The notes: generated by a model from the letters alone, not told the origin. A DNA stretch of 32,180 bases from Nanobdellota archaeon (GCA_038045885.1 JBBSXG010000025.1:1-32180), one strand, 5' to 3'. Positions 1,851 through 30,496 are shown, counted from the first letter of the stretch. Numbers and translations are program-made.

Positions 1851-2434
1851 TTTAAATATTTTAAAGCTAATTTTTTAAATCTTTTAGGATAAGATTTTAA
1901 ATAAGAATTAAGTTTATTTTTATTTATCTTTTTTTTAATATTATTTAAAACTTTTTTATCAACCTTTTCTTTAAAATAAATTATATCGATAAGAGTTTTT
2001 TCTAAATCAGAGTAAGGTAAATAAAAATTTCCTTGTTTATTATAATTAAATCCAAAAAGATATTTTTTATTTAATCTTCTAATTAAAACGTTTCCATCGA
2101 GTATTTCTCTTACTCCAGACCTAACTTTTCTAGAAGTTATTATTATAGGAATAGTTTCTTGCTCCCATAGATTATAAAAGCTTAAAGCATCCTGTAATCC
2201 CAAGTAAGAGGGTTTAAACGCGAAAACACTTATGGAATTATCATTATATCTGGTGTAATAACCCTTAGTTAATCTTTTAATTTTTCCTTTTAAAATTAAA
2301 TTTTTTATAAGATGTTTTGTATACTGTTTAACATTTTTTTTATATTTTACTATTAATTCTATAGAGTTATAATCAACAACAGGGCTTTTTGTAAATAATT
2401 CCTTTACTTTAATGAGATATTTTTGCTTTCCCAT
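1847..2434 (-). CDS. AbiEi-like winged-helix protein (putative type IV antitoxin / transcriptional regulator)
   Basis: The N-terminal region resembles an AbiEi wHTH ending in the ..G.I.RLTKGYYTR motif (family pattern: l.rv.rG.Y). Its start lies 1 nt after the stop of the upstream AbiEii-like gene. 195 aa. Confidence 0.5.
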   Translation of the reverse strand: MGKQKYLIKVKELFTKSPVVDYNSIELIVKYKKNVKQYTKHLIKNLILKGKIKRLTKGYYTRYNDNSISVFAFKPSYLGLQDALSFYNLWEQETIPIIITSRKVRSGVREILDGNVLIRRLNKKYLFGFNYNKQGNFYLPYSDLEKTLIDIIYFKEKVDKKVLNNIKKKINKNKLNSYLKSYPKRFKKLALKYLN

Positions 2435-2435
2435 T

Positions 2436-3071
2436 TTAAATATAATTTTTAATATAATCCAACATCTTTTCCACTCTAGGGATTAAACCTTCTAAAATTA
2501 AAATTTTTAATTCATTTTCATCTACAGGTTTTTTAAAATCTTTTACAAATTTTTGAAGATTGCTTTTTATTTTGCTATTGTCTTCTGCATATTTTAGCAA
2601 AAAAAAGATATCATATAAATCCCTAATCTTCAGCCTGTTTAAGTAAGCATTAATCTTCTCATTTACCAGTTCTTCTGCTGTTAAGGTATAAACACTAATA
2701 AAATTTCCTTCACTCGTTTCATAATCCTTTAATCTTCCATCTTTGTATTTAAAAATAGCTTCAAATCTAATATAGTTTCTATTTAATTCTAATTCAGAAT
2801 ATAGGCTATTTTCAGCTATTTTCTTTTTTACAATGGTAAATCCTTTTTTCTCTAAGTTCGAGAATAATATTTGTAGTTTATTAATATCTTTTTTCAGATA
2901 AACATCCAAATCTTCGCTGAATCTATTGCCTTTATAGCATCTCCATATAGCCGTACCACCATGAATTACTGCATTATTAAAAACTTTATAGAGTTCCTGA
3001 ACTAACAAATCCTGGGCTAAAGCTATATTCTTATGCAGTTCCTTCTTCAATTTTAGTATTATAGGGATCAT
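2436..3071 (-). CDS. AbiEii/AbiGii-family nucleotidyltransferase (putative type IV toxin)
   Basis: HGGTAIWRCYKGNRFSEDLDVY matches the hGG(T/S)Al...R.S.DlD signature of DUF1814/AbiEii NTases. I prefer the ATG at 3071 (MIPIILK..) over the tracked TTG at 3083. Confidence 0.68.
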   Translation of the reverse strand: MIPIILKLKKELHKNIALAQDLLVQELYKVFNNAVIHGGTAIWRCYKGNRFSEDLDVYLKKDINKLQILFSNLEKKGFTIVKKKIAENSLYSELELNRNYIRFEAIFKYKDGRLKDYETSEGNFISVYTLTAEELVNEKINAYLNRLKIRDLYDIFFLLKYAEDNSKIKSNLQKFVKDFKKPVDENELKILILEGLIPRVEKMLDYIKNYI

Positions 3072-3085
3072 TTTAATAATCAACC

Positions 3086-3578: not shown

Positions 3579-5738
3579 ATGGCAAAATCACAGAATATCA
3601 TAATGCTTGTAGGAATTTTAGTTATCCTCTTGTTAATGATAACTATCTTTCCATTGACTCAACCTAAATTAACTAATCAATATGGAGAGTTAAAGAAGTT
3701 TTCATCTTTGGAAGAATTAAATGAATTTTTAAAACAAACCCAAACACAGCCTAATTATATAAATACTTTAGATAGCATAACTCCAATGGCCGATGTTCAA
3801 AAATCAATTACAAGCGCAGAATCAAGTGGAAGTTCTAGTGGTTCAGTAGATTATTCACAAACTAATATACAAGTTCAAGGAGTTGATGAGGCAGATATAG
3901 TAAAAAATGATGACAAGTATATTTATGTTGCTTCAAGCGGAAAAATAAGTATAATTGAGGCTTATCCTGCAAATACTGCAAAGGTATCAACTGAATTAGA
4001 TATAAATGGAACTGCACATGAAATCTTTATTAATGAAAATAAGTTAGTTGTATTTGGATCTGAAAATTATTATGGGGGATCTGGCGGAGTAATGCCTTTA
4101 GAAAGAAAAGTAGCTTCTATTGCAATATTTCCTCCAATTTATTATGCTCCTCAATCTTTTATTAAAGTCTATGATATACAAGATAAAGAAAACCCAAAAT
4201 TAGAAAAAGAAGTTGTTTATGATGGAGATTATTATGATTCAAGAATGATTGATGATTATGTGTATGTAATTGCTAATCAGCCAATTAATTACAATAACGA
4301 GGTTGTAATGCCTATAATAAAAAATGATGATAATGAAGTTAAAATTGCTGCAGAAGATATTTACTATTTTAACGTGCCTTATTATGATTACAGATTAACA
4401 ACAATTTTTGCAGTTAACTTAGACAATTTAGAGTTAAATAAAAATAGTTTTTTAACAGGTTACTCACAAAATATATTTGTTTCAAGAGATAATATTTACT
4501 TAACAACACAAAAATATATTCCTCAAACAGAATATGAAGATTTAGAAGAAGAGATAATAAAACAGGGATTAATTCCTTTGGTGGATGAAAGCACGGCACA
4601 AAAAATAAGAAGTATATTAAATAAGAATGATAATATTTATGAAAAACAGCAAGAGATTCAAGAAGTACTTGCATCTTATTATAATAAATTAGGTTCAAAT
4701 GAGAAAGAAGATTTGTTAAAAGATTATGATAAAAGAGCTTTAGAAATAAGAGCTGAATTCCAAAAAAACTCTGAAAAAACCATAATCCATAAGATTTCTG
4801 TAAGTAATGATCAAATAGAATACAAAGCAAAAGGAGAAGTTTCAGGAAGAACATTAAATCAATTTTCAATGGACGAGTATCAAGGTAATTTCAGAATAGC
4901 CACAACAACAGGAGATACTTGGTCAGGAAATTCATTGAATCATGTTTATGTTTTAGATGAAGGAATGAGTATCATAGGAAAATTAGAAGATTTAGCAAGA
5001 ACAGAACAAATATTTTCAGTAAGATTTATTGAAGACAGAGCTTATCTTGTTACTTTCAAGAATATAGATCCTTTATTTGTTATTGATTTAAGCAATCCAG
5101 AAAATCCTGAAGTACTTGGAGAATTAAAAATTCCAGGATATTCAAATTATTTGCATCCTTATGATAGTACTCATATTATTGGAATAGGAAAAGAAGCTAT
5201 TGATTCAGGTGAAAATAGCAATTTTGCATTATATCAAGGAGTTAAACTAGCTTTGTTTGATGTTTCAGATGTTTCAAATCCTAAAGAAATAAGCAAATTT
5301 AACATTGGAGACAGAGGAACTGATTCACGAGCATTATACGAACATAAAGCATTTTTATTTAATAAAGAAAAAGAATTATTAGTTATTCCTATATCATTAA
5401 ATGAAGTAAATGCTGCAGATTACCCTAATGGAATTCCTGCTAATGCTTATGGTGAATTAACATTCCAAGGAGCTTATGTATTATCATTAAATTTAGAAGA
5501 TGGTTTTGAATTAAAAGGTAAGATAACCCATTTAACTGATGAAGAACTTGCTAAATTTGGCAAAGAAAGATATTATTATCCTAGTTATGGAAGCGAGATA
5601 ACAAGAAGTTTGTTTATAGATAATGTTCTTTATACAATCTCGAGTAAATATATTAAAGCTAATAGCTTAGATAATTTACAGGAACTTAATAAACTTAAGT
5701 TGCCTTTTGAAGAAAATATTTATTCTATACTTTATTAA
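3579..5738 (+). CDS. secreted/anchored beta-propeller domain protein (PF09826-like)
   Basis: N-terminal hydrophobic anchor IIMLVGILVILLLMITIFPL. Motifs VQGVDEADIVKNDDKYIYV, NQFSMDEYQGNFRIATT, FSVRFIEDRAYLVTFKNIDPLFVIDLSNPENP and GYSNYLHPYD match my recollection of the 'Beta propeller domain' family. Confidence 0.72.
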   Translation: MAKSQNIIMLVGILVILLLMITIFPLTQPKLTNQYGELKKFSSLEELNEFLKQTQTQPNYINTLDSITPMADVQKSITSAESSGSSSGSVDYSQTNIQVQGVDEADIVKNDDKYIYVASSGKISIIEAYPANTAKVSTELDINGTAHEIFINENKLVVFGSENYYGGSGGVMPLERKVASIAIFPPIYYAPQSFIKVYDIQDKENPKLEKEVVYDGDYYDSRMIDDYVYVIANQPINYNNEVVMPIIKNDDNEVKIAAEDIYYFNVPYYDYRLTTIFAVNLDNLELNKNSFLTGYSQNIFVSRDNIYLTTQKYIPQTEYEDLEEEIIKQGLIPLVDESTAQKIRSILNKNDNIYEKQQEIQEVLASYYNKLGSNEKEDLLKDYDKRALEIRAEFQKNSEKTIIHKISVSNDQIEYKAKGEVSGRTLNQFSMDEYQGNFRIATTTGDTWSGNSLNHVYVLDEGMSIIGKLEDLARTEQIFSVRFIEDRAYLVTFKNIDPLFVIDLSNPENPEVLGELKIPGYSNYLHPYDSTHIIGIGKEAIDSGENSNFALYQGVKLALFDVSDVSNPKEISKFNIGDRGTDSRALYEHKAFLFNKEKELLVIPISLNEVNAADYPNGIPANAYGELTFQGAYVLSLNLEDGFELKGKITHLTDEELAKFGKERYYYPSYGSEITRSLFIDNVLYTISSKYIKANSLDNLQELNKLKLPFEENIYSILY

Positions 5739-20188: not shown

Positions 20189-20629
20189 ATGGAAAGAAAA
20201 ATACTAAACAATAAAGAAATTAAAAGGGTTTTTGAAAAACTTGAAGAACAGTTTGGCATTAGTGTCAAAATTGATTTAGGAGTTCTAAAGGATAAACACG
20301 GAAAATTATTTTTAATTACTAAAGATATAAATAAAGTTGATTTTTCAAAGTTAAGAATAAATGAGTTAGGATTATATTTTGCCAAAGATGATTCTGAAAT
20401 AAGATTGACAATTGAAGGCACACAATTATTTGGAGAGCATGCAACAAAAAATGTTTATGAGATAGACAAATCAGATACCTATTTCTGGATGACAGGAGAA
20501 GATATTTCTTGTAGCAAAGATTATAATGGTTTTGTTATTATAAAACACAAAGATGATTATTTAGGATGTGGAAAATGCAAAGACAAAAAAATTATAAATT
20601 TTATTCCCAAAGAACGCAGGATCAAATAA
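20189..20629 (+). CDS. NIP7-like / pre-PUA plus PUA domain protein
   Basis: GLYFAKDDSEIRLTIEGTQLFG and the C-terminal GFVIIKHKDDYLGCGKCKDKKIINFIPKERR resemble archaeal NIP7/UPF0113-type proteins. Confidence 0.5.
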   Translation: MERKILNNKEIKRVFEKLEEQFGISVKIDLGVLKDKHGKLFLITKDINKVDFSKLRINELGLYFAKDDSEIRLTIEGTQLFGEHATKNVYEIDKSDTYFWMTGEDISCSKDYNGFVIIKHKDDYLGCGKCKDKKIINFIPKERRIK

Positions 20630-21402
20630 GGATATCAGCAAGATTAAATGAAAGTTATCGTAGATTGAATACTAATCATAACAGCTATTTTTCTAGTATA
20701 AGTGATTCAAGAAGAGGAAGTTTATTAGTTGATACAAATTTATTTTACCCGTTAAGGGGGGAAATTCTTACATTCCCATTAATAATAGATGACTTAGAGG
20801 AACATAGAATTTATAATTTATCGGAAAGAGAATTATTAGAAAGAGCAACTTCTTATAAAAGAACATTGAAAGAATTATTAGAGAAAACCCCAAATTTACA
20901 TGTTACAGAAGAAGTCTATCATGAAATATTAGCAGAAACAGGTTATTGGAAAGGCAGAGTCCAGGTTTTAGAATGTTTTAAATTTAACATAAAAGATCCT
21001 AAGAAAAGAAGTTTAATTGAAAGATTAATAAGTTTTGGCAGAAAATATTCTCAATATTTGGAAGAAAACCATATAGAAAATAGAAGTTTAATTAGAAATA
21101 GAATAGCAAAAATTCATCGAAATAGGAACAATGGATTTTTAAGTGAATTAGAAAAAAAATTAAGTAATTTAGGTATAAATTGCACAGATGTGGATAAAAA
21201 TTTGGTCCTTCATGCATTTGTAAACGGTTTTGAAGAAGATTTAACATTAGTATCTTCAGACCATCATATTCTAATGCTAATGGAAGGGCTAACTTATGAT
21301 AAAAAAGTTTTAGAGGATATGATGAATAAGAATGTAAGTATACATAGCAATAGGTTTTGGCATGGTTATATGACTTATATCTTTGATTTCATTAATAGTT
21401 AA
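20566..21402 (+). CDS. PIN-like domain protein with a long internal insertion; start uncertain
   Basis: SLLVDTNLF (first acidic strand) and LTLVSSDHHIL (last acidic strand) are ~170 aa apart. The tracked ATG overlaps the upstream gene by 64 nt. An in-frame TTG at ~20665 is an alternative start. Confidence 0.42.
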   Translation: MWKMQRQKNYKFYSQRTQDQIRISARLNESYRRLNTNHNSYFSSISDSRRGSLLVDTNLFYPLRGEILTFPLIIDDLEEHRIYNLSERELLERATSYKRTLKELLEKTPNLHVTEEVYHEILAETGYWKGRVQVLECFKFNIKDPKKRSLIERLISFGRKYSQYLEENHIENRSLIRNRIAKIHRNRNNGFLSELEKKLSNLGINCTDVDKNLVLHAFVNGFEEDLTLVSSDHHILMLMEGLTYDKKVLEDMMNKNVSIHSNRFWHGYMTYIFDFINS

Positions 21403-21406
21403 AGTT

Positions 21407-22438
21407 TTATTTTCCAAAGAATTTTGTGAATACTAATTTTCCAGGATTTCTCATATTTTTCTTCAAATCCAGATTATATAATAACAGATCCCCAAATAAA
21501 ACATTAATCTCCCCATTATTCAACATTCTTTTTTTTAATTTCCTTCCTTTTTTGCTATGATAAAATTCTTCTTTAACAACTTGAGTTCTCATTTTTCGCA
21601 TGATATTTAATCCATACTTAGTAAGATTAAAAAAAGGATCCTCTGTCAAATAAGCCCCGTAGTTTCCCCTATTAATTTCTTTTTTTAGTTTCTCAAAAGC
21701 AGATATAACATGAGCATCTGCAAACTTTTCATTTCCAGTTCTCAATTTTCCCCTGTCATGCCTTCCATAATGTAAAGGATAAAATTCTTGTTCTTTGCAA
21801 ACATGATCCCAATTCAAATTAAACCAATTATAACTTAATAAGTTTGTGCTCTTTACAAGTGGAATGTTATACAATCTAAATCCATAACTGCCAGTCTCAT
21901 TTACAGAAGGAACATTAACGTCTGCCTGTCCTCCACTCTTTAAAGCCATCTCCAATACAACCTTAAGTTCACCTAGATTTCCTATGTATGGATTAACATT
22001 TATTTTATGATTAAAATCTTGATCTGAATTCATCATTTGAGCCTGATAAATTTCTGTAAAAGGTACGACTCTATATTCCCTAGAAGTGTGCATTATCCCC
22101 TGCCAATCCCAACCTATTATGCTTCTAAAATCCAATTTATTTAATCCGTGAATAAAATTAGATTCTGGAGTGGCTTTATCTTTTATTGCATTTTCTAGAC
22201 TATCATATCTTTTAAGTTTTATAACTCCCAGTTTATGAATAGCATTTAGAGAAGTCCTTGGAATTATAGGATACTCTCTTCCAAATAATAAAATTTCGTT
22301 CGGTTTTAATCTGTCTAACAAATATGAGATGTAAAATCTAACTGTGTTTGAACCAGGATTAAAATATTCCTGAATAACCTTATGATCCTTAACTAGTTCA
22401 GATACTTTAGGTCTTGCTAATAGCTCTTCTAATCCCAT
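21407..22438 (-). CDS. hypothetical protein (343 aa)
   Basis: A long clean ORF with no recognisable motif, TM segment or P-loop. Confidence 0.6.
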   Translation of the reverse strand: MGLEELLARPKVSELVKDHKVIQEYFNPGSNTVRFYISYLLDRLKPNEILLFGREYPIIPRTSLNAIHKLGVIKLKRYDSLENAIKDKATPESNFIHGLNKLDFRSIIGWDWQGIMHTSREYRVVPFTEIYQAQMMNSDQDFNHKINVNPYIGNLGELKVVLEMALKSGGQADVNVPSVNETGSYGFRLYNIPLVKSTNLLSYNWFNLNWDHVCKEQEFYPLHYGRHDRGKLRTGNEKFADAHVISAFEKLKKEINRGNYGAYLTEDPFFNLTKYGLNIMRKMRTQVVKEEFYHSKKGRKLKKRMLNNGEINVLFGDLLLYNLDLKKNMRNPGKLVFTKFFGK

Positions 22439-22468: not shown

Positions 22469-22777
22469 TTATGTCTTTAAGTTTTCATTTATCCATTCTA
22501 GTGTTAGTTTAGTTTTAGGGTTTTTCTTTAAGTATAAAAATAATGATTCAATATTATCCTTGTATTTTGCAATTTCGGGTTTTGAATCATAAGATAATAA
22601 AGCAGGCAATAGCCATCTTTCATAATCATAATTCATACAAGTAACATCTAATCCAAAGTTGTCCTTGCGTTCTAACATCAAGATTTGAATTCTTTCCTGA
22701 AAAGAATTTAATATATATAAAACAGTTTCAGGATTAGTTATTTTTTGTACGATCTCTTCTATATTATAATCATCCAT
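22469..22777 (-). CDS. hypothetical protein (102 aa)
   Basis: ORF co-directional with, and 30 nt upstream of, the 343-aa gene. Confidence 0.5.
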   Translation of the reverse strand: MDDYNIEEIVQKITNPETVLYILNSFQERIQILMLERKDNFGLDVTCMNYDYERWLLPALLSYDSKPEIAKYKDNIESLFLYLKKNPKTKLTLEWINENLKT

Positions 22778-22807: not shown

Positions 22808-23158
22808 TTATTTTTTTCTAAAACTAAGATAAATTAATAAGATTGCCCCAATAACATTAAATGAATCAGCCAAATTAAATACAGGAAATATGCTAATCTC
22901 AATAAAATCTCTTACATATCCTAAAAATATTCTATCCATCAAATTTCCTATTATTCCTGCTATTAAAAAACTTAATCCTAATCTTAAGTTTTTATCTTTG
23001 TAATAATAGATACATATTATTAAAACAATTAAACTAACGATGATTAGTAATGTAGTGTAACCTTGAAATAGGCCAAAAGCAGCACCTTTATTAATCGTTG
23101 TTGTTAATAAGTGCTTAGATATCTGATCAAGCAATAACAAGATAATTATAAGTAGCAT
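22808..23158 (-). CDS. lspA: lipoprotein signal peptidase (signal peptidase II), unusually short
   Basis: All LspA blocks are present: [34 protein letters not shown] and [15 protein letters not shown]. Only 116 aa. Confidence 0.8.
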
Positions 23159-23202
23159 ATCAAAAAATTTATATAAACAAGTATTTATATCTTTTCATAA
23201 AA

Positions 23203-24708
23203 ATGCAGTCTATTTTAGATAATAAAAAAGAGGAAAGTTCAGCTGCTGAGAAAATCCAAAAAATAAGAGATAAAGCAGCTTCTAAGAACATTAGTTACAA
23301 TTTAGTTTATGATTCTATTGGAGAAGGTATTGAGCCTATATATTTCTGGTTGTTAGATTTTTTGCAGGATAAAGAGCCTAGTGGACTGGGAATGGATGAG
23401 GTAATAAAATATAAAGATGAATATGAGGCTGCTGTTGGTTCAGGTTATTTCTCTGATTTAGGAACAAAAGCAACAAGAATGCAAGAACAGGCAATGAAGA
23501 TAATGGGTACAATAAATACTGTTATTAGAAGCGTAATTAATTTAGTCTACGATTTAAGAGAATTTGATATTAGGCTAGAAACTTATGATGATTTGAGATC
23601 AACTAACCCGGATAAAAAAGATGCTGCAGAAATCTCGTTAAGAGTTATATGGATGGACCAGGTAGATGTTAAAAGAGGGAGAGGAAGCATAAATGGATTA
23701 GCACAGCAATTACAGTTTGTTACCCTAAGAGATGCTTTCTTGTATGCAAAAGATGAAGCAGAAGTAGAAAAAATAGATTTAAATGAAAGAGTAAAAAGAA
23801 TATTAAAATCAAGATTAAGTGAATATCTGAAATGGAAATCATATTCAGAAAAAGAATTAAGAAAACGTTATAATATTGAAAAAGCTTATCTAAAATCGCA
23901 ATTTAATTCGCTAAAATATTATACCTCTTGGGTCAAGCCATACTTATTGGCTGCTAAAAAGTTAAATATGACTAATTTCTTGACGCAGTCTGGTTTGCCA
24001 AATCCTAACATTGTGAATATATTTAATAACATGGAAATAAAATTAAGTTTATTTGGAAAACAGGAGTTTAAGATAGAAAGTATTGATCCTAGATTAGCAA
24101 ATATAAAGTTAAATAATAAATATTATTCTTGTTTAGAAGTTGAAATGGTTTTTAGAACTGTTCCGAGAGCAACTCAATCGCAGCAAGGCACAGTTTACAT
24201 ACATTCGGGAAGAACAGATATTAACATGAGGGCATATTCATTTACAGAAAGAGAATTAGAAGAAATTAAGAAATTACAATTTGAAGAAGATATGGAATTA
24301 ATTGAAAATATGACAGATGTTAGTTTAAAAGAAATTCAAGATGATATTGACAAGTATGTTTCAGGTAAAGAGCCAAGTGTAGAAGAAAAGTTAAATTATC
24401 TTAATTCTTTGCTAAAAAAAATAAATGACAGAAGTGCTGCCAAGGAGATTACAGCTGAAATAAAAAAACTTGAAAAAAATTTTTCTCAAAAAGTTGCCTG
24501 GGAAAATCCTTTCAGTGGATTATTGGGAGGATTTGGACAGGCTTTCAAAGCATTTGGAAATTTAAAGAGCTTTTTCAAATATAAAATTGCTGTAGATGAA
24601 GAATATTATGAAAAACTAGCGAGAGACTCGGCAAAAAAAAGGGCAGAAGAATTATGTTATGTATTATATGATGTGTATAAGAAGACACATGGAATGATGA
24701 CTTGGTAA
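23203..24708 (+). CDS. hypothetical 501-aa mostly helical protein with a C-terminal amphipathic Gly/Phe/Lys helix
   Basis: Long ORF with TATA-like boxes 15-35 nt upstream (leaderless-like). NPFSGLLGGFGQAFKAFGNLKSFFKYK lies near the C-terminus. No catalytic motif recognised. Confidence 0.7.
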   Translation: MQSILDNKKEESSAAEKIQKIRDKAASKNISYNLVYDSIGEGIEPIYFWLLDFLQDKEPSGLGMDEVIKYKDEYEAAVGSGYFSDLGTKATRMQEQAMKIMGTINTVIRSVINLVYDLREFDIRLETYDDLRSTNPDKKDAAEISLRVIWMDQVDVKRGRGSINGLAQQLQFVTLRDAFLYAKDEAEVEKIDLNERVKRILKSRLSEYLKWKSYSEKELRKRYNIEKAYLKSQFNSLKYYTSWVKPYLLAAKKLNMTNFLTQSGLPNPNIVNIFNNMEIKLSLFGKQEFKIESIDPRLANIKLNNKYYSCLEVEMVFRTVPRATQSQQGTVYIHSGRTDINMRAYSFTERELEEIKKLQFEEDMELIENMTDVSLKEIQDDIDKYVSGKEPSVEEKLNYLNSLLKKINDRSAAKEITAEIKKLEKNFSQKVAWENPFSGLLGGFGQAFKAFGNLKSFFKYKIAVDEEYYEKLARDSAKKRAEELCYVLYDVYKKTHGMMTW

Positions 24709-24739
24709 TGTTTATTAACCTTATAAATATAAAGTTTTT

Positions 24740-25369
24740 ATGGATGTTAAAGAAATATTAAAGAACTTAGAGAAATTAAAAGGCAATGAAGTTAAAATAA
24801 AGTATCTTAATGAAATATTAAAAAAAATAGAAGATAAAGATTTAATTGAGGAAATAAAAGAATTAATCCAGGAATTAGAAGATAATTTGGAGTCAAAAAT
24901 AGAAGATGTAATAATTCCTGCATCAAGAAGACGTAAAATGGAATTAGATGAAGTTGAGAGTGATATCGAAACTCAAGGAAGACAAGTTGTAAGACAGAGA
25001 CAATTGCCGAGGCAACAAATAATACTTCCAAGAGACGAGGAGGATAAAGAAACAAGATATAATATTGCTCCAAGATATGAAACAAAAACACAACAAACTT
25101 ATCAAACTGCACAATTATTTACAACCTATGAGAACATGTCCCAGCAGTCACAGACAAATGCTAGATTAATAGAAGAAGTATTAATAAAAGAAAGAGATTT
25201 TGATATTGGAAACGCAATAAGTGAAAATCAAAGAGAAGAAATTCGAGATACGATTGATAAGTTCATGCCAAATGCGTCTGTAGAAGAAAGAATAAAAACA
25301 GAGCAGCAAGTGTTTTATGACATGAAGTTAAAAGATAAAAACTTAAAATATATTGCGAAACTAAGATGA
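24740..25369 (+). CDS. hypothetical 209-aa charged, Gln-rich protein
   Basis: N-terminal coiled-coil-like region, a central Q/R/T-rich low-complexity stretch (QGRQVVRQRQLPRQQ..TKTQQTYQTAQ), and an ATGA overlap with the next gene. Confidence 0.6.
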   Translation: MDVKEILKNLEKLKGNEVKIKYLNEILKKIEDKDLIEEIKELIQELEDNLESKIEDVIIPASRRRKMELDEVESDIETQGRQVVRQRQLPRQQIILPRDEEDKETRYNIAPRYETKTQQTYQTAQLFTTYENMSQQSQTNARLIEEVLIKERDFDIGNAISENQREEIRDTIDKFMPNASVEERIKTEQQVFYDMKLKDKNLKYIAKLR

Positions 25370-27291
25370 TTAACCCGTTTAAATCAAAATATGAAGGAAG
25401 TCTAGACTCGAGTTCTGTTCCACAATATGCTCTAGGAGCTCCGACTAGTCCTCAGACAGCAAATCAGATAGCAGAAGCAACAGCAAGATTAAATGCAGGA
25501 GTTTTTGGAGTTGATTTAGCATTAATTGATGAAAGATTATTTGAACAAATTCCTAAACAGCATTTTAAGGAGATTGAAAGGTTAATGACATTAACTGGAG
25601 CAAAGGCAACTATCCACGGTCCTATTATAGATTTAGCAGGATTTTCACAGCAAGGATGGCAGGAAGAAAGCAGAAGAGAAAATGAAAGCAAAATGAAATA
25701 TTATATGGATATGGCTCATGAAGTTGATAGCAAAGGAAATACCCCTTTAAATTTTCATATTAATACGGCAATGATTGGAGAACAAAAAAGAAAATTAAGC
25801 AACGATGAATACAAAAGTTTAAGCGAAGAAGAAAGAGAAACTGTTAAAGAAATTTTTAACCCACTAACTCATAGAAAAGAGTATGAAGTTGTCGAGGTTG
25901 TAGGAGCAGTTGATAGAGAAACTGGACAGATAGCTCCACTAAAACGTGAGATAAAGCAATATCCTGGAAGAGTTAAAGTCTGGGAGCCTTATGAGAGATT
26001 AGACAATTTAAATCAGACACAATGGGATCAGGAAAGATTAAAAATATTTCAATTACAACAGCAAAAAGCAGAGATCATGGATAGAATTGTAAATTTAGAA
26101 AGACAAGCACATCCTCTAAGAGTTGGAGAAGAAAAAGGAGTTTTGTCTACAGATGAAACTAGAATGTTACAAAATATAGACAAAAATAAGAATTTATGGA
26201 TTTCTCACATTAATGAATTAAATCAACATATTTATACTGGACTAAATGAAGTTTATAATAATCTACAGTATTATACAGAAAAAGAAGATAAAGAAAAAGC
26301 TATAAAATTGAGAAAAAGTATAGATAAAGGTTATAAAGATTATGATAAAAGATTTAGTGAACTTGTTGATAAATCGCATAAACAAAAACTAACAGAGGCA
26401 GAGGGTTATGAAGCCAGTAATATGGGAGATTTACAATATAGAGAATTACAGCTTTCTTTAGATAAAGTTGGAAACCCTCAACACAAAAAAGACAAAGATT
26501 ATTTGCCTGCACCCCAAAAATATATTCCTACAAATCAACTTGCGTTAGAAAAAACAGCTGAAACAGTTGCGAATGTTGTTTTTGATTCTTATAATAAGTA
26601 TAAAAATAATTCTCCAATATTATTACTAGAGAATTTATCGCCTGAAGGAACCTTAGGAAGTGCACAGGATTTAGTTAACTCAGTTGAAGAATCAAGAAAG
26701 AAATTAATTCGTAAATTAATGAAAGAAAAAGGTTTAGATGAAGATAAAGCCAAAGATGTTGCAGAAAAATTAATTGGAGTAACATGGGATGTGGGTCATA
26801 TTAATTTCATGAGAAAACATGGATATTCAGAAGCAGATGTTTTACGAGAAACCGAAAAAATTTCTCCTTATGTTAAACAAGTTCACATTACAGATAACTT
26901 TGGATTTAATGATGCTCACTTGCCTCCTGGAATGGGAAATGCTCCTATCAAAGAAGAAATGGAATTAATTGCTAAGGAAATGAGAAAAAAGGGGTTAGAT
27001 TTTAAGAAAGGGAGTGTAATTGTAGAAGCTGGATCATTTGTAGGACAATTTAAAGAAAATCCTCATCCATATGCACTAGAATATTTTGAATCGCCATTAT
27101 ACACTTACAAAAACATGCCTGTGTGGAAGGATGTATGGGAAACAGAAGGAAGTTATGGATTAGGATATGGACAAATATTGCCAGAACAACATTTTGGAAT
27201 GTATGGAGCAGGATTTTCAAATCTTCCAACAGATCTTGGAGGGCCGATTAGTCAAGATAGATCGAGATTTGCAGGAACTCCAAACGCATAA
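25366..27291 (+). CDS. endonuclease IV / xylose-isomerase-like TIM-barrel protein interrupted by a ~250-aa charged insertion, with a Gly/Tyr-rich tail
   Basis: Ordered blocks are ATIHGPIIDLAG, LNFHINTA, [insertion aa ~140-390], ILLLENLS, GVTWDVGHINF, VKQVHITDN, NDAHLPPGMGN and VIVEAG. They parallel the metal-ligand strands of AP_endonuc_2-fold enzymes. Confidence 0.68.
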   Translation: MINPFKSKYEGSLDSSSVPQYALGAPTSPQTANQIAEATARLNAGVFGVDLALIDERLFEQIPKQHFKEIERLMTLTGAKATIHGPIIDLAGFSQQGWQEESRRENESKMKYYMDMAHEVDSKGNTPLNFHINTAMIGEQKRKLSNDEYKSLSEEERETVKEIFNPLTHRKEYEVVEVVGAVDRETGQIAPLKREIKQYPGRVKVWEPYERLDNLNQTQWDQERLKIFQLQQQKAEIMDRIVNLERQAHPLRVGEEKGVLSTDETRMLQNIDKNKNLWISHINELNQHIYTGLNEVYNNLQYYTEKEDKEKAIKLRKSIDKGYKDYDKRFSELVDKSHKQKLTEAEGYEASNMGDLQYRELQLSLDKVGNPQHKKDKDYLPAPQKYIPTNQLALEKTAETVANVVFDSYNKYKNNSPILLLENLSPEGTLGSAQDLVNSVEESRKKLIRKLMKEKGLDEDKAKDVAEKLIGVTWDVGHINFMRKHGYSEADVLRETEKISPYVKQVHITDNFGFNDAHLPPGMGNAPIKEEMELIAKEMRKKGLDFKKGSVIVEAGSFVGQFKENPHPYALEYFESPLYTYKNMPVWKDVWETEGSYGLGYGQILPEQHFGMYGAGFSNLPTDLGGPISQDRSRFAGTPNA

Positions 27292-27333
27292 TTTAAATAC
27301 TAAATAAAATTCGTAAAACAAAAGAGGTTGATA

Positions 27334-28131
27334 ATGTTGAAACAAGTTGTTAATAAAAAAGAGCTTACAAAAGATTATGATATTGCTTATGATTTCTCAA
27401 CTAAAGTTTATGAAAAATTTAAAGATGTTATCAAAAGCATAGTTCTATTTGGAAGCACTGCAAAAGAAACTCAGCAGCATAGATCAGATATTGACATTAT
27501 AATTATCGTAGATGATGCAACAATTCAATGGACTCAGGAGCTTGTAGCTTGGTACAGGCAGGAACTAGCAAGATTAACAGCTTCTTTAAGATATCCAAAA
27601 AAATTGCATGTTAATACAGTTACATTAACAACATTTTGGAATGAAGCTATTGTTGGGGAGCCTGTAGTAATTAATGTCTTAAGATATGGAATAGCTTTAA
27701 TTGATTTTGGCGGATTTTTTGAACCATTAAAAGTATTATTAGCTAGAGGAAGAATAAAGCCAACTCCAGAAGCGATCTATAACGCTTTAACTAGAAGTCC
27801 AATTCACCTGTCTAGAGCAAATATGTACTTATTAGGAGCAATAGATGCAGTATATTGGAGCATGGTTGATAGCGCACATGCAGCATTAATGTCAGCAAAA
27901 CAAGTTCCACCAAGTCCAGAGCATATTTCTTCGTTATTAAAACAATCTTTTGTAAAGAAAGGAATGTTAAATTCTAAATTTGTAGATTGGTATGAAGAAC
28001 TTTATGCATTAGCTCACCATATTACACATGGAGAAGTTAAACGAGTTACAGGAAGAAATATTGAATTGTATATGGACAGGGCAGATAAGTTTATCGGAGA
28101 AATGGCTAATATAATAAAACAATTAGAATAA
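27334..28131 (+). CDS. nucleotidyltransferase-domain protein with a C-terminal helical (degenerate HEPN-like) domain
   Basis: VLFGSTAKETQQHRSDIDIIIIVDD carries the GS...DxD minimal NTase motif. The C-terminal half is helical and lacks a clear Rx4-6H. I prefer the ATG at 27334, with AGAGGT ~8 nt upstream. Confidence 0.68.
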   Translation: MLKQVVNKKELTKDYDIAYDFSTKVYEKFKDVIKSIVLFGSTAKETQQHRSDIDIIIIVDDATIQWTQELVAWYRQELARLTASLRYPKKLHVNTVTLTTFWNEAIVGEPVVINVLRYGIALIDFGGFFEPLKVLLARGRIKPTPEAIYNALTRSPIHLSRANMYLLGAIDAVYWSMVDSAHAALMSAKQVPPSPEHISSLLKQSFVKKGMLNSKFVDWYEELYALAHHITHGEVKRVTGRNIELYMDRADKFIGEMANIIKQLE

Positions 28132-28407
28132 CTAGAAACCAGATTGATATTTTAAGTTTTCATATTCCGTATTTAATTTACGATAAATAACCTCATCTAT
28201 TTTTTTATTCACAAATTGATAGTGTAATTCTTTAAATAAGAAATCTAAATTGTCTAAAATATGGGGTATTTTTTCTACTTCTCCTAATTCAGTTTCATTA
28301 TCTCTATCCAAAACTGTATCTTCTAAGCTAGATAAATCATTTCTTATATCACCAATTAATTTAGAAGCTTTTACCTCTTCTATATCTGGAATTATTTGTT
28401 CTGTCAT
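28132..28407 (-). CDS. hypothetical acidic protein (91 aa)
   Basis: Last gene of a three-gene minus-strand operon. Its stop abuts the stop of the convergent NTase gene. Confidence 0.5.
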   Translation of the reverse strand: MTEQIIPDIEEVKASKLIGDIRNDLSSLEDTVLDRDNETELGEVEKIPHILDNLDFLFKELHYQFVNKKIDEVIYRKLNTEYENLKYQSGF

Positions 28408-28429: not shown

Positions 28430-29164
28430 TTAAGAAGCTTTTTTCTCAGCTTCTTTTTGTTCTTTCTTGAATTCTTTTATCGCTTTTGTGTTTGAGTAGA
28501 TTACTGCAGCTTTGTCAATGTCCTTCATGAATTCTTTTACTTTCTTTTCATCAAGTTCGTAGCCTGTAACTTTCTTGTCTTTATCCTTGATTTCTTTCAT
28601 GAATTGACTTGCATACATTCTTGCATATAAGCTCTCATGTCTATTTCTGTAATCCCCAATGTTACCTCTAGCACTAAAGTTCATGCTTACGCCTAAGTCA
28701 TCTGCAGCATCTTCTTGAGCATATTCGTCTGCTTGTCCTTGACCTAGTTTAGGAGCATCATATAGTCCAGTTAAATAAGTTGCTAGTTTAGCAGCTGCTT
28801 CAGCACCATTTTTGACGCCTTTTAATTCTCCTTTCATTTCTGAAACAACTTCTTCTAGTATCTTTTCTTTATCTCCTCCATTATAGAGGGGTTGTGTTTC
28901 ATTGATTTTATCTTGCTTATTTTCTAAAGCATATCTAACTGCTTCTTCCGGACTTACCCTAATATCTCCATAAGCTTCCTTATATCGTCTATTACGCAAT
29001 GCAGGATCTTGAATTTCAGAGGCAGCTAATCCAGCTAAATTTTTATATAATTGATAACGTTCTGTATTACTACTAGATTTTTCTAAACCTCTAGATAAAC
29101 GAGTATAAGCTCCTATTTGTAATAATCTCTCCTCTAACTTTGGTTGATTTTGTTCTTGTATCAT
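28430..29164 (-). CDS. hypothetical 244-aa Ala/Gly/Lys/Glu-rich soluble protein
   Basis: GGAGG sits 9 nt upstream of the ATG. The composition is visibly different from neighbouring genes (more GC-rich codons). No TM segment or known motif. Confidence 0.65.
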   Translation of the reverse strand: MIQEQNQPKLEERLLQIGAYTRLSRGLEKSSSNTERYQLYKNLAGLAASEIQDPALRNRRYKEAYGDIRVSPEEAVRYALENKQDKINETQPLYNGGDKEKILEEVVSEMKGELKGVKNGAEAAAKLATYLTGLYDAPKLGQGQADEYAQEDAADDLGVSMNFSARGNIGDYRNRHESLYARMYASQFMKEIKDKDKKVTGYELDEKKVKEFMKDIDKAAVIYSNTKAIKEFKKEQKEAEKKAS

Positions 29165-30383: not shown

Positions 30384-30496
30384 CGCCAAGGCAGGGATTT
30401 GAACCCCGACATCCTTGCGGAAACAAGCTCTCTATATCTGGTTTCCAGGTTCGCATTCTAGGAATCTTGCGCGATACCAGATTACGCGACCTTGGC
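30384..30496 (-). tRNA. tRNA-Ser(GGA), type II (long variable arm), with two predicted introns (30450-30465 and 30430-30442); no encoded CCA
   Basis: Acceptor GCCAAGG/CCTTGGC with discriminator G; D-arm GCG-TAATCTGGTAT-CGC; T-arm CGGGG-TTCAAAT-CCCTG; variable arm TCC-GCAA-GGA. Removing the two inserts gives a perfect anticodon arm CAAGC-CTGGAAA-GCTTG. It lies downstream of tuf-rps10, where I recall a tRNA-Ser in other archaea. Confidence 0.8.

What the first reader, a model, noticed from the sequence alone, without database searches (positions are those of the whole stretch)
23203..28131. Co-directional four-gene cluster of orphan proteins around a split TIM barrel and an NTase
Four tightly packed plus-strand genes have no counterpart I can name as a system. 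They are a 501-aa protein, a 209-aa protein, a 641-aa protein and a 266-aa protein; the gaps are 31 nt and about 40 nt, with a 4-nt ATGA overlap between the 209- and 641-aa genes. Only two carry recognisable folds: an endonuclease-IV/xylose-isomerase-like metal-dependent TIM barrel, and a minimal nucleotidyltransferase with a helical C-terminal domain. The other two are a long helical protein ending in an amphipathic membrane-type helix and a Gln-rich, disorder-like protein. A metal-dependent barrel, an NTase, a possible membrane-associated scaffold and translational coupling resemble nucleic-acid-processing or defence-type modules, but that reading is inference. This is my top candidate for an undescribed system.
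Basis: partly seen in the sequence, partly recalled or inferred. Interest (0 to 1): 0.75.

Follow-up and report, generated by a model that had tools for sequence, protein, structure and literature searches.

The report
Conserved Nanoarchaeota operon, unknown function
The four genes are real and stay together across hundreds of species of tiny DPANN archaea, so this is a core, inherited gene set built around a metal-dependent phosphate-ester-cutting enzyme with a long coiled-coil insert and a protein of unknown fold, not a defence island, and its function is still undescribed.

Summary
There are four packed + strand genes: A (501 aa), B (209 aa), C (641 aa) and D (265-267 aa), with a 31-nt gap, an ATGA overlap and a roughly 40-nt gap.

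The defence reading does not hold. A has relatives in at least 550 species genomes, all Woesearchaeota/Nanoarchaeota, including Ca. Nanopusillus. C follows A in 63 of 66 informative loci, and D follows C in 49 of 55. A, C and D are about as conserved as GluRS (A 45%, C 37%, D 56%, GluRS 43%). There are no PADLOC hits for A-C and no relative of A on viral contigs.

- **A-(B)-C** is the translationally coupled core. D is a looser but recurrent partner.
- **C** is a TIM barrel split by a ~250-aa beta plus coiled-coil insertion. Its nearest solved relative is MJ1311. Its nine invariant H/D/E residues map onto the nine Zn ligands of endonuclease IV, so it looks like a phosphoesterase, not a sugar isomerase. 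A canonical short Endo IV also occurs in the phylum, so C is a specialised paralogue.
- **D** is an intact MNT/KNTase-like nucleotidyltransferase.
- **A** has no Pfam, PDB or BFVD match.
- **B** evolves fast and is sometimes absent.

Function is inferred only: a soluble complex doing phosphodiester chemistry on nucleic-acid ends or nucleotidylated substrates.

The parts
23159..23202 (.). 44-nt divergent intergenic spacer between lsp and gene A. It holds two TATA-like boxes (tttatata 23168-23175 for A; tatttatat 23183-23191, read on the minus strand for lsp). The spacing fits leaderless or short-leader archaeal transcripts.
   Evidence: Sequence read directly. Promoter function is inferred, not shown. 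The sigma-70 scan is uninformative for an archaeon.
23203..24708 (+). Gene A, 501 aa: an orphan family specific to Nanoarchaeota. The model shows a five-stranded antiparallel sheet (residues 26-38, 66-77, 276-289, 307-326, 329-348) with long helical hairpins. Segment 84-253 is consistently basic, region 349-465 is variable, and the C-terminal helix and end (YDxYKKAHGMxTW) are conserved.
   Evidence: 606 homologues and 801 representatives at 50% identity. No Pfam family in 77 members. No PDB or BFVD fold match. AF2 pLDDT 79, pTM 0.63. Invariant residues. Charge profile.
24740..25369 (+). Gene B, 209 aa: a fast-evolving adaptor-like protein with a conserved N-terminal helix, a variable low-complexity middle (Gln-rich here) and a few conserved Tyr. 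Its stop overlaps the C start (ATGA).
   Evidence: Iterated HMM search recovers 53 B-slot ORFs (51 distinct sequences) from the fetched loci. B is absent where A and C abut. The B-stop/C-start junction overlaps or lies within 2 nt in 41 of 47 loci.
25366..27291 (+). Gene C, 641 aa: an MJ1311/Endo IV-type metal-dependent TIM barrel. Candidate metal ligands are H84, H131, E422, D475, H478, H507, D516, H518 and E554.
   Evidence: Pfam PF01261 partial match. PDB MJ1311 at 2.9e-12 with the family profile. AF2 pLDDT 85.7, pTM 0.82. Foldseek hits to Endo IV, D-psicose 3-epimerase and UlaE. Invariant residues. Ligand mapping onto E. coli Nfo.
25771..26523 (+). Insertion in C (about aa 136-386) between barrel strand beta4 and helix alpha4, on the catalytic face. 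It consists of a small beta subdomain (139-206) and four long helices (208-366). It is present in all homologues but variable in sequence.
   Evidence: Secondary structure and pLDDT of the model. The profile alignment to MJ1311 covers only the two barrel halves. Distant homologues of 601-685 aa all keep an insertion.
27103..27288 (+). C-terminal tail of C (aa 580-641). It is predicted disordered yet carries conserved residues (P606, G614, P621, L624, G625, G626, R634; consensus YGxGFSxLPxELGG...SRFAGTP). It is a candidate linear binding motif.
   Evidence: pLDDT below 50. Invariant and nearly invariant columns in 78 homologues. Partly kept in distant lineages. The binding role is inferred.
27334..28131 (+). 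Gene D, 265 aa (an alternative TTG start lies at 27328): a minimal Pol-beta-type nucleotidyltransferase fused to a helical UPF0332/HEPN-like domain, with KNTase-like architecture. Catalytic G40-S41...D52-x-D54 is intact, and E146, D179, H182 and PPSPxH are conserved. GAGG lies at 27324-27327.
   Evidence: PF01909/PF18765. Weak hits to KNTase and MntA in the PDB. JGI names it 'nucleotidyltransferase/UPF0332'. Invariant residues. D lies downstream of C in 49 of 55 loci (41 adjacent) and next to C in the distant loci L091-L093.
22808..23158 (-). Bacterial-type lipoprotein signal peptidase II (Lsp, 116 aa), the conserved divergent neighbour of gene A. Whether it belongs to the functional unit is uncertain.
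   Evidence: PF01252 at 8e-26. It lies upstream of A in 64 of 71 loci and is adjacent and divergent in 49. In more distant lineages other genes take this position (DJ-1/PfpI, PheRS, CRS1_YhbY).

Best explanation
This is a vertically inherited, phylum-wide core operon of Nanoarchaeota (Woesearchaeales, Pacearchaeales and Nanopusillus-type lineages). It is not a mobile or defence module.

Genes A, B (where present) and C are translated as a coupled unit and most likely assemble into a soluble cytoplasmic complex (inferred).

The catalytic subunit C is a TIM-barrel metallo-phosphoesterase of the MJ1311 / endonuclease IV type. Nine invariant His/Asp/Glu residues correspond to the trinuclear zinc site of Endo IV. 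A ~250-residue beta plus coiled-coil module inserted at the catalytic face probably builds the substrate or partner platform (inferred).

A is an orphan-fold protein with a conserved basic helical core. B is a flexible adaptor. Both are proposed to be targeting or scaffold subunits (inferred).

D is an active MNT/KNTase-like nucleotidyltransferase, usually encoded just downstream with its own ribosome-binding site. It supplies the complementary chemistry, transfer of a nucleotide onto a hydroxyl group.

The most likely job is housekeeping phosphodiester chemistry on nucleic-acid ends or lesions: cleaning or cutting by C, then nucleotide addition by D. A closely related possibility is a nucleotidylated substrate. 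The phyletic pattern, operon structure, folds and active-site residues are shown. The complex, the substrate and the division of labour are inferred.
For: Distribution and inheritance:
- At least 550 GTDB species genomes encode A, and every record title is Woesearchaeota, Nanoarchaeota or an unclassified archaeon. One member is named Ca. Nanopusillus.
- It occurs in a complete 829-kb genome, AR20.
- C lies downstream of A in 63 of 66 loci, and D after C in 49 of 55.
- The A-C or A-C-D order persists in distant lineages with different flanks.
- Median identity to the window: A 45%, C 37%, D 56%, against GluRS 43%.
- GC matches the flanks. A has no relative in the viral contigs. A-C have no PADLOC hit.

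Coupling: the B-stop/C-start junction overlaps or lies within 2 nt in 41 of 47 loci. A/B overlap by 7 nt in 20 of 45. A/C overlap where B is missing.

C:
- MJ1311 at 2.9e-12 with the family profile.
- Confident barrel model with Foldseek hits to Endo IV and epimerases.
- The invariant set in 78 homologues, and again in 21-27% identical relatives, is exactly H84, H131, E422, D475, H478, H507, D516, H518 and E554 plus a few Gly/Pro and R103, A117 and Y579.
- An unsupervised alignment to E. coli Nfo (sequence verified against 1QTW) maps 8 of the 9 Zn ligands onto them.

D: the NTase motifs are invariant.

All four proteins lack TM segments. A residues 84-253 are basic in all 77 homologues.
Against: - No biochemical or expression evidence.
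- Sequence similarity of C to bona fide Endo IV is not significant.
- From memory, not retrievable here: the MJ1311 structure paper (Uechi et al. 2014, Acta Cryst F70:890) reports that MJ1311p keeps the nine Endo IV ligands but lacks the DNA-binding groove.
- C is acidic overall.
- A canonical short Endo IV exists in the phylum: L063 and N. equitans NEQ368 (PMC3149612). C is therefore not simply the cell's AP endonuclease.
- D is missing from the locus in Nanopusillus and in L085, and B is missing in about a dozen lineages. The four proteins therefore need not act as one machine.
- A gives no clue to substrate.
- The surrounding region is also fairly collinear: GluRS is nearby in 21 loci and the PUA gene in 33. 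Some of the linkage of D and lsp may be inherited gene order rather than function.
Confidence: 0.4

Rival explanations
1. A nucleotidylation writer/eraser module. D AMPylates (or otherwise NMPylates) a protein or small-molecule hydroxyl, possibly on A or on the conserved tyrosines of B. C, a trinuclear-metal phosphodiesterase, removes the nucleotide. A is the regulated target or scaffold.
For: - D is closest to MntA-type and KNTase-type transferases, which modify protein Tyr or small-molecule hydroxyls.
- D and C have chemically opposite activities and are neighbours in most lineages.
- The only well-conserved residues in B's disordered middle are tyrosines.
- From memory: MJ1311p lacks a DNA groove.
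Against: - D persists next to C in lineages without B, and A-C persists without D in the locus.
- No Endo IV-fold de-AMPylase is known to me.
- There is no direct evidence for any modification.
Confidence: 0.15
2. C is an ordinary sugar or sugar-phosphate isomerase/epimerase, as public annotations say. The cluster would then be a small carbohydrate-metabolism operon with unrelated neighbours.
For: - Pfam PF01261 and source names such as 'sugar phosphate isomerase/epimerase'.
- The top Foldseek hits include D-psicose 3-epimerases and UlaE.
Against: - From my knowledge of DPEase and UlaE, epimerases of this fold use a four-ligand single-metal site (E, D, H, E). C keeps five additional invariant ligands that match Endo IV positions.
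- The cluster is retained in Nanopusillus-type genomes, which I recall are very small, and sits among translation genes.
- The 250-aa coiled-coil insertion and the translational coupling to two non-enzymatic proteins are not features of sugar epimerases.
Confidence: 0.1
3. An anti-phage defence or toxin-antitoxin-like module: an NTase effector or sensor with a nuclease-like barrel.
For: - D gives weak hits to PADLOC candidate systems PDC-S09 and PDC-M05A, to CBASS-type cyclases and to MntA.
- NTase plus nuclease-like pairs are common in defence.
Against: - The PADLOC hits cover only the generic NTase motif, and A, B and C have none.
- It is present in at least 550 species in the same chromosomal context next to housekeeping genes.
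- Conservation equals that of GluRS.
- No GC anomaly and no relative of A on viral contigs.
- The R154/H158 pair is R-x3-H, not the HEPN Rx4-6H motif, and distant orthologues do not keep it.
Confidence: 0.03
4. An envelope, lipoprotein or lipid-handling function linked to the neighbouring signal peptidase II. A would act as a lipid- or hydrophobic-ligand-binding protein and C as a phospholipid head-group phosphodiesterase.
For: - lsp is the divergent neighbour in 49 of 71 loci.
- In the distant locus L091 an AliA_AliB (archaeal lipoprotein biogenesis) gene lies about 1 kb upstream instead.
- About a third of A's top-50 PDB hits are START/SRPBCC/TULIP lipid binders.
- From memory: DPANN archaea must scavenge lipids, and phospholipase C also uses a trinuclear Zn site.
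Against: - Those Foldseek hits have probabilities of 0.25 or less and TM-scores below 0.2, so they are not meaningful.
- All four proteins are soluble, with no signal peptide or TM segment.
- lsp is replaced by unrelated genes in other lineages.
Confidence: 0.07

Closest known systems
MJ1311p of Methanocaldococcus jannaschii (PDB 3WQO; 'D-tagatose 3-epimerase-like protein', function unknown)
   Same: It is the only solved structure that the C family profile finds with significance (2.9e-12). Both barrel halves align, and the aligned stretches show the same HAP, D-x-G-H, H-x-H-x-x-D-N and D-x-H motifs. From memory (Uechi et al. 2014, not retrievable here): MJ1311p keeps the nine Endo IV zinc ligands but has no DNA-binding groove.
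   Different: MJ1311p is a plain 293-aa barrel. C carries a ~250-aa beta plus coiled-coil insertion after beta4 and a conserved disordered 60-aa tail. C is also translationally coupled to two orphan proteins. Neither protein has a known substrate.
Endonuclease IV (Nfo/Apn1) AP endonuclease family
   Same: TIM-barrel fold (Foldseek probability about 1.0 to S. aureus, B. anthracis and Geobacillus Endo IV). All nine Zn-ligand positions (H69, H109, E145, D179, H182, H216, D229, H231, E261 of E. coli Nfo) are matched by invariant residues of C. Local motifs are similar (NFH, EN, D-x-x-H, H-x-x-D, D-x-H-x-x-G-x-G-N).
   Different: There is no significant sequence similarity. C has the large insertion and is acidic. 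A canonical short Endo IV coexists in the phylum. DNA-recognition loops and activity are untested.
Ketose 3-epimerases / UlaE / xylose-isomerase-like enzymes (Pfam PF01261)
   Same: Same fold and same Pfam clan. They are among the best Foldseek hits, and most C homologues carry a PF01261 hit.
   Different: The window protein scores just below the Pfam gathering threshold (30.1 against 31.1 bits), and the match covers residues 461-535 only. C has nine conserved metal ligands rather than the four of the epimerases.
Kanamycin nucleotidyltransferase ANT(4') and MntA-type minimal nucleotidyltransferases (HEPN/MNT type VII TA)
   Same: D has the same two-domain layout and size as KNTase (an N-terminal Pol-beta NTase plus a helical domain). 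It has the GS...DxD motif, weak hits to KNTase, MntA and HalB, and is named NTase/UPF0332 by JGI.
   Different: Only the ~50-residue NTase motif aligns. D is a single fused, highly conserved (50-75% identity) phylum-wide gene, not a TA pair or a resistance gene. There is no conserved Rx4-6H.
Nuclease complexes with coiled-coil elements (Mre11-Rad50/SbcCD, ExoVII XseA-XseB). This is an analogy only.
   Same: A metal-dependent phosphoesterase combined with long antiparallel coiled coils and small partner subunits, encoded in one operon.
   Different: No homology. The only link is a coiled-coil-level hit to XseA at E = 0.044. There is no ATPase, and here the coiled coil is inserted inside the catalytic domain.

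Membership tests
Endonuclease IV (Nfo) family | TIM-barrel (xylose-isomerase-like) fold | tested here: met
   The AF2 model has pLDDT 85.7 and pTM 0.82. Foldseek gives probability 0.97-1.00 to Endo IV chains and to epimerases, although E-values are only 0.01-0.1 because of the insertion.
Endonuclease IV (Nfo) family | Nine residues that ligate the trinuclear Zn cluster | tested here: met
   A global alignment of the C core to E. coli Nfo maps H69, H109, E145, D179, H182, H216, D229 and H231 onto H84, H131, E422, D475, H478, H507, D516 and H518 (z = 3.7 against shuffles). The ninth ligand (E261) aligned to E572, but the invariant E554 in 'VIVEAG' is the likely equivalent. All nine are invariant in 78 homologues and in 21-27% identical relatives.
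Endonuclease IV (Nfo) family | Significant sequence similarity to characterised Endo IV proteins | tested here: not met
   The family profile finds MJ1311 but no Endo IV chain at E <= 1. hhalign and hmmsearch against Nfo are not significant. By contrast, the short ORF in L063 hits S. aureus Endo IV at 1.9e-7.
Endonuclease IV (Nfo) family | DNA-binding groove / R-loops and AP-endonuclease or 3'-diesterase activity | not testable with these tools
From memory, the nearest relative MJ1311p lacks the groove.
MJ1311-like subfamily of PF01261 | Significant profile match over both barrel halves with shared metal motifs | tested here: met
   3wqo_A scores E = 2.9e-12. Domain 2 covers 448-525 against 180-253, and a weak domain 1 covers 71-130 against 61-117. 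The single-sequence search gives 5.4e-5.
Ketose 3-epimerase / sugar-phosphate isomerase (PF01261 sensu stricto) | Pfam gathering-threshold match and a mononuclear E-D-H-E site only | tested here: inconclusive
   The window protein scores 30.1 bits against a cut-off of 31.1, over residues 461-535 only. Most homologues have a precomputed PF01261 hit. The E-D-H-E positions are present, but so are five further invariant ligands.
Known anti-phage defence systems (PADLOC-DB v2) | Match of the component proteins to defence-system models, and a patchy island-like distribution | tested here: not met
   No hit for A, B or C. D hits only generic NTase models. The cluster is phylum-wide with fixed synteny, and A is absent from IMG/VR.
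HEPN/MNT type VII toxin-antitoxin | MNT-type nucleotidyltransferase with the GS...DxD motif | tested here: met
   PF01909/PF18765. NCBIfam MntA_antitoxin scores 31.4 bits, below its cut-off of 60. G40, S41, D52 and D54 are invariant.
HEPN/MNT type VII toxin-antitoxin | Separate HEPN toxin with a conserved Rx4-6H RNase motif | tested here: not met
   The helical domain is fused to the NTase. Pfam finds no HEPN domain. The only R...H pair (R154-x3-H158) has the wrong spacing and is lost in distant orthologues.
Kanamycin nucleotidyltransferase-like two-domain NTases | N-terminal NTase plus a C-terminal helical domain of about 125 aa that contributes a catalytic carboxylate | tested here: inconclusive
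   Size and layout match, and KNTase is the best single-sequence PDB hit (E = 0.058, residues 18-71 only). E146 is invariant in the helical domain and may parallel KNTase E145 (from memory). No structure was predicted for D.

The most novel reading that the evidence does not exclude
A-(B)-C(-D) is a previously unrecognised molecular machine specific to the phylum Nanoarchaeota. An orphan-fold, basic protein (A) and a flexible adaptor (B) would dock onto the coiled-coil stalk or conserved tail of an Endo IV-type trinuclear-metal phosphodiesterase (C), with a dedicated nucleotidyltransferase (D). The machine would do an essential task with no counterpart in other archaea, for example processing or scavenging of host-derived nucleic acids, or a new RNA/DNA end-repair pathway in these genome-reduced symbionts.
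Probability: 0.3. Interest if true: 0.75.

Novelty: new variant of a known kind. Interest (0 to 1): 0.55.

Why it matters
Nanoarchaeota (Woesearchaeales, Pacearchaeales, Nanopusillus and relatives) are abundant, uncultured, genome-reduced archaea, and much of their conserved proteome has no assigned function.

This cluster is as conserved as an aminoacyl-tRNA synthetase and occurs even in Nanopusillus. It pairs two recognisable chemistries (a trinuclear-metal phosphoesterase and a nucleotidyltransferase) with a protein that has no detectable relative in Pfam, the PDB or BFVD. That makes it a concrete, testable entry point into lineage-specific core biology:
- The active-site residues to mutate are known.
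- The likely complex partners are defined by translational coupling.
- The uncharacterised MJ1311 subfamily gains a genomic context that could reveal its substrate.

It also corrects database annotations ('sugar phosphate isomerase/epimerase', 'AP endonuclease family enzyme') that are probably too specific, and it removes a false defence-system candidate.

Tried and rejected
- Pfam, NCBIfam, PHROGs and PADLOC scans of all four proteins and their neighbours gave nothing for A and B.
- A Pfam scan of 77 A homologues at E <= 1 found no family shared by more than 4 members. Long A homologues carry no informative fused domain apart from one zinc-ribbon insert.
- PDB sequence searches with A and with the A profile gave nothing. 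The PDB search with B gave nothing.
- Foldseek of the A model against the PDB and BFVD gave no hit with E <= 0.001. The START/TULIP, CapZ and EmrA hits have TM-scores below 0.25 and were rejected as evidence.
- hhalign of the C profile against E. coli Nfo, and hmmsearch of the C profile against Nfo, were not significant. A core-only global alignment with a shuffle control was used instead.
- hhalign of A against C found no relationship.
- The test for B fused to C or A in B-less lineages found only weak, compositional matches of B's N-terminal helix to A's N-terminus. Rejected as a Rosetta-stone link.
- The HEPN RNase motif in D was rejected.
- The sigma-70 promoter and terminator scan is uninformative for an archaeon (27 found against 29.9 expected).
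- Nine literature searches found no description of the cluster. The three DPANN/Nanobdellota or archaeal protein-family papers opened do not mention it.
- The MJ1311 structure paper could not be retrieved.
- 'C is the cell's only AP endonuclease' was rejected after finding a canonical Endo IV in L063 and NEQ368 in N. equitans.

Full report
**Observation.** The ORF list shows four adjacent + strand genes. A is 23203-24708 (501 aa), B is 24740-25369 (209 aa), C is 25366-27291 (641 aa) and D is 27328-28131 (267 aa from TTG). The A-B spacer is 31 nt. B and C share ATGA at 25366-25369. D most likely starts at ATG 27334, because GAGG lies 6 nt upstream and the homologues' N-termini agree, which gives 265 aa and a 42-nt spacer. 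The window comes from an AT-rich archaeon (GC 25-35%). It encodes aIF2-gamma, aIF5B, aEF1A, GluRS, ribosomal proteins and GyrA. GC across the cluster does not differ from the flanks.

**Distribution and synteny.**
- A has 606 and C has 587 homologues in the large protein collection. All named ones are from Nanoarchaeota or Woesearchaeota MAGs.
- A profile search of 1.84 billion representatives finds 801 A-family clusters.
- A scan of one genome per GTDB species finds at least 550 genomes with A. All record titles are Woesearchaeota, Nanoarchaeota or unclassified archaeon. They include the complete 829-kb genome AR20. One distant member is named Ca. Nanopusillus.
- In 82 non-redundant loci, C follows A on the same strand in 63 of 66 loci with enough sequence, and within 1.3 kb in 59.
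- D follows C in 49 of 55 loci and is adjacent in 41.
- A bacterial-type signal peptidase II lies upstream in 64 of 71 loci and is adjacent and divergent in 49.
- A ~200-aa ORF fills the slot between A and C in most loci. An iterated HMM unites 53 of these ORFs into one fast-evolving family. In about eleven loci A and C abut or overlap and B is absent.

**Junctions.** The B-stop/C-start junction overlaps or lies within 2 nt in 41 of 47 loci. A/B overlap by 7 nt in 20 of 45. C-D is usually separated by 21-100 nt. A-(B)-C is therefore a translationally coupled core, and D is a looser partner.

**Distant lineages.** The flanks change, but the core persists.
- L085/L086: CRS1_YhbY | A - 184-191-aa ORF - C.
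- Ca. Nanopusillus: DJ-1 | A-C | SecY.
- L091: AliA_AliB .. DJ-1 | A-C-D.
- L092: A, then an inserted block, then C-D.
- L093: PheRS | A-C-D.

**Conservation yardstick.** Median identity to the window proteins across the fetched loci is 45% for A, 37% for C and 56% for D, against 43% for GluRS. A has no relative in 2.9 million viral contigs. PADLOC has nothing for A, B or C, and only generic NTase hits for D. This is the signature of a vertically inherited core operon, not of a defence island.

**Protein C.**
- Pfam gives only a partial, just sub-threshold PF01261 match.
- The single sequence (5.4e-5) and the family profile (2.9e-12) both find MJ1311 (PDB 3WQO). The two barrel halves align to residues ~71-130 and ~448-525 of the profile.
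- The AF2 model is confident (pLDDT 85.7, pTM 0.82). It shows a TIM barrel interrupted after beta4 by a beta subdomain (139-206) and four long helices (208-366). Helix 389-415 then leads back into beta5.
- The last 60 residues are disordered but contain invariant residues.
- Foldseek finds D-psicose 3-epimerases, UlaE and endonuclease IV with probability ~1 but modest E-values.

**The active site of C.** The invariant polar residues of 78 homologues are H84, H131, E422, D475, H478, H507, D510, D516, H518 and E554. In an alignment with five relatives only 21-27% identical, the invariant set reduces to H84, H131, E422, D475, H478, H507, D516, H518 and E554 plus a few other residues. I took the E. 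coli Nfo sequence from memory and verified it as identical to 1QTW. An unsupervised global alignment of the C core to Nfo places eight of Nfo's nine Zn ligands on these residues (z = 3.7 against shuffles). The ninth (E261) most plausibly corresponds to the invariant E554. From my own knowledge, sugar epimerases of this fold use only four ligands. C is therefore best read as a multinuclear-metal phosphoesterase.

**Limits on the Endo IV reading.** Sequence similarity to real Endo IV proteins is not significant. I recall, but could not retrieve, that Uechi et al. 2014 found the nine ligands conserved in MJ1311p without a DNA-binding groove. A canonical short Endo IV exists in the phylum. One is a 274-aa ORF in L063 that hits S. 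aureus Endo IV at 1.9e-7. Another is NEQ368 in N. equitans (PMC3149612). C is therefore a specialised paralogue whose substrate is open.

**Protein D.** D has an MNT/Pol-beta NTase domain (PF01909/PF18765) with invariant G40-S41 and D52-x-D54. It also has a helical domain that JGI calls UPF0332. The layout resembles kanamycin nucleotidyltransferase. E146, D179, H182 and a PPSPxH motif are invariant even in 31-46% identical orthologues that sit next to C in distant lineages. The R154/H158 pair is not kept, so a HEPN RNase site is not supported.

**Protein A.**
- No Pfam family is shared among 77 members.
- There is no PDB sequence match and no PDB or BFVD fold match.
- The model (pLDDT 79, pTM 0.63) shows a five-stranded antiparallel sheet assembled from the N-terminus and residues 276-348, long helical hairpins (84-253), a variable acidic region, a low-confidence linker with a conserved PF motif, and a conserved C-terminal helix.
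- Residues 84-253 are basic (+6 to +10) in all homologues.
- Invariant residues across the whole phylum include E44, K69, R124, D152, D177, N194, E218 and K493.
- There is no TM segment and no outstanding amphipathic membrane helix.

**Protein B.** B keeps only an N-terminal helix and a few tyrosines.

**Interpretation.** Shown: the cluster is real, ancient within Nanoarchaeota, vertically inherited and housekeeping-like. A-(B)-C are translationally coupled. C has an Endo IV/MJ1311-type metal site and a unique insertion. D is an intact NTase. Inferred: the proteins form a soluble complex that does phosphodiester chemistry, most likely on nucleic-acid ends or lesions, with D adding nucleotides. 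An alternative is a nucleotidylated substrate in a writer/eraser arrangement. Sugar-isomerase, defence and envelope/lipid readings are less likely, for the reasons given under the rival explanations. No description of this cluster was found in the searchable literature.

**Verdict.** The defence and membrane readings are not supported. I file it as a new variant of a known kind: an Endo IV/MJ1311-type metallo-phosphoesterase elaborated with an insertion and lineage-specific partners. There is a real chance (about 0.3) that it is a new phylum-specific machine. Interest 0.55.

Noticed in passing
window 2436-3083 (-) and 1847-2434 (-): The 215-aa ORF is an AbiEii-type nucleotidyltransferase toxin (PF08843, 4e-16). 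The adjacent 195-aa ORF has no Pfam hit. They may form an AbiEi/AbiEii toxin-antitoxin pair just downstream of gyrA. This is the only defence-like element seen in the window.
   Followed up: partly
window 30384-30496 (-): Rfam finds a tRNA (37 bits) that ARAGORN misses. At 113 nt it is probably an intron-containing archaeal tRNA.
   Followed up: partly
window 22808-23158 (-); L091 5223-5945 (-): A bacterial-type lipoprotein signal peptidase II (only 116 aa) is the conserved divergent neighbour of gene A in Woesearchaeota. In a distant lineage an AliA_AliB (archaeal lipoprotein biogenesis) gene lies about 1 kb upstream of A instead. It is unclear whether this is coincidence or in-place replacement of analogous functions.
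   Followed up: partly
L063 10594-11415 (+): A canonical short (274-aa) endonuclease IV homologue lies in a Woesearchaeote locus that has gene A but no adjacent gene C. It hits S. aureus Endo IV at 1.9e-7 and Apn1 at 1.3e-6.
   Followed up: yes
L063 6353-8278 (+): A 642-aa ORF in an archaeal (Woesearchaeota) contig reads like a long RelA/SpoT homologue, with HD, synthetase, TGS and ACT-like regions judged from the sequence by eye. This is unusual for archaea and probably of bacterial origin.
   Followed up: no
window 28430-29164 (-) and 28132-28407 (-): Two convergent orphan genes abut the end of D with no spacer. The 244-aa one recurs downstream of D in about 11 related loci (24-53% identity) and has no family assignment.
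   Followed up: partly
window 20566-21402 (+), 21407-22438 (-), 22469-22777 (-): Three orphan ORFs lie between the PUA-domain gene and lsp. The 343-aa one has homologues in only 2 of the fetched loci, so this stretch is a variable region inside an otherwise collinear neighbourhood. The 278-aa one has a weak ScpA-like NCBIfam hit (E = 0.003).
   Followed up: no
L093 7340-8440 (+); L092 12672-13856 (-): RNA 3'-terminal phosphate cyclase (RtcA) in L093 and a CCA-adding enzyme in L092 lie within 1-2 genes of the A-C-D cluster in two distant lineages. This is suggestive of RNA-end chemistry, but the neighbourhoods are generally rich in translation genes.
   Followed up: no
window 3579-5738 (+): A 719-aa protein matches the Beta_propel domain (PF09826) over its full length (7e-158). 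It is typical of secreted or surface proteins of small-celled archaea and bacteria.
   Followed up: no
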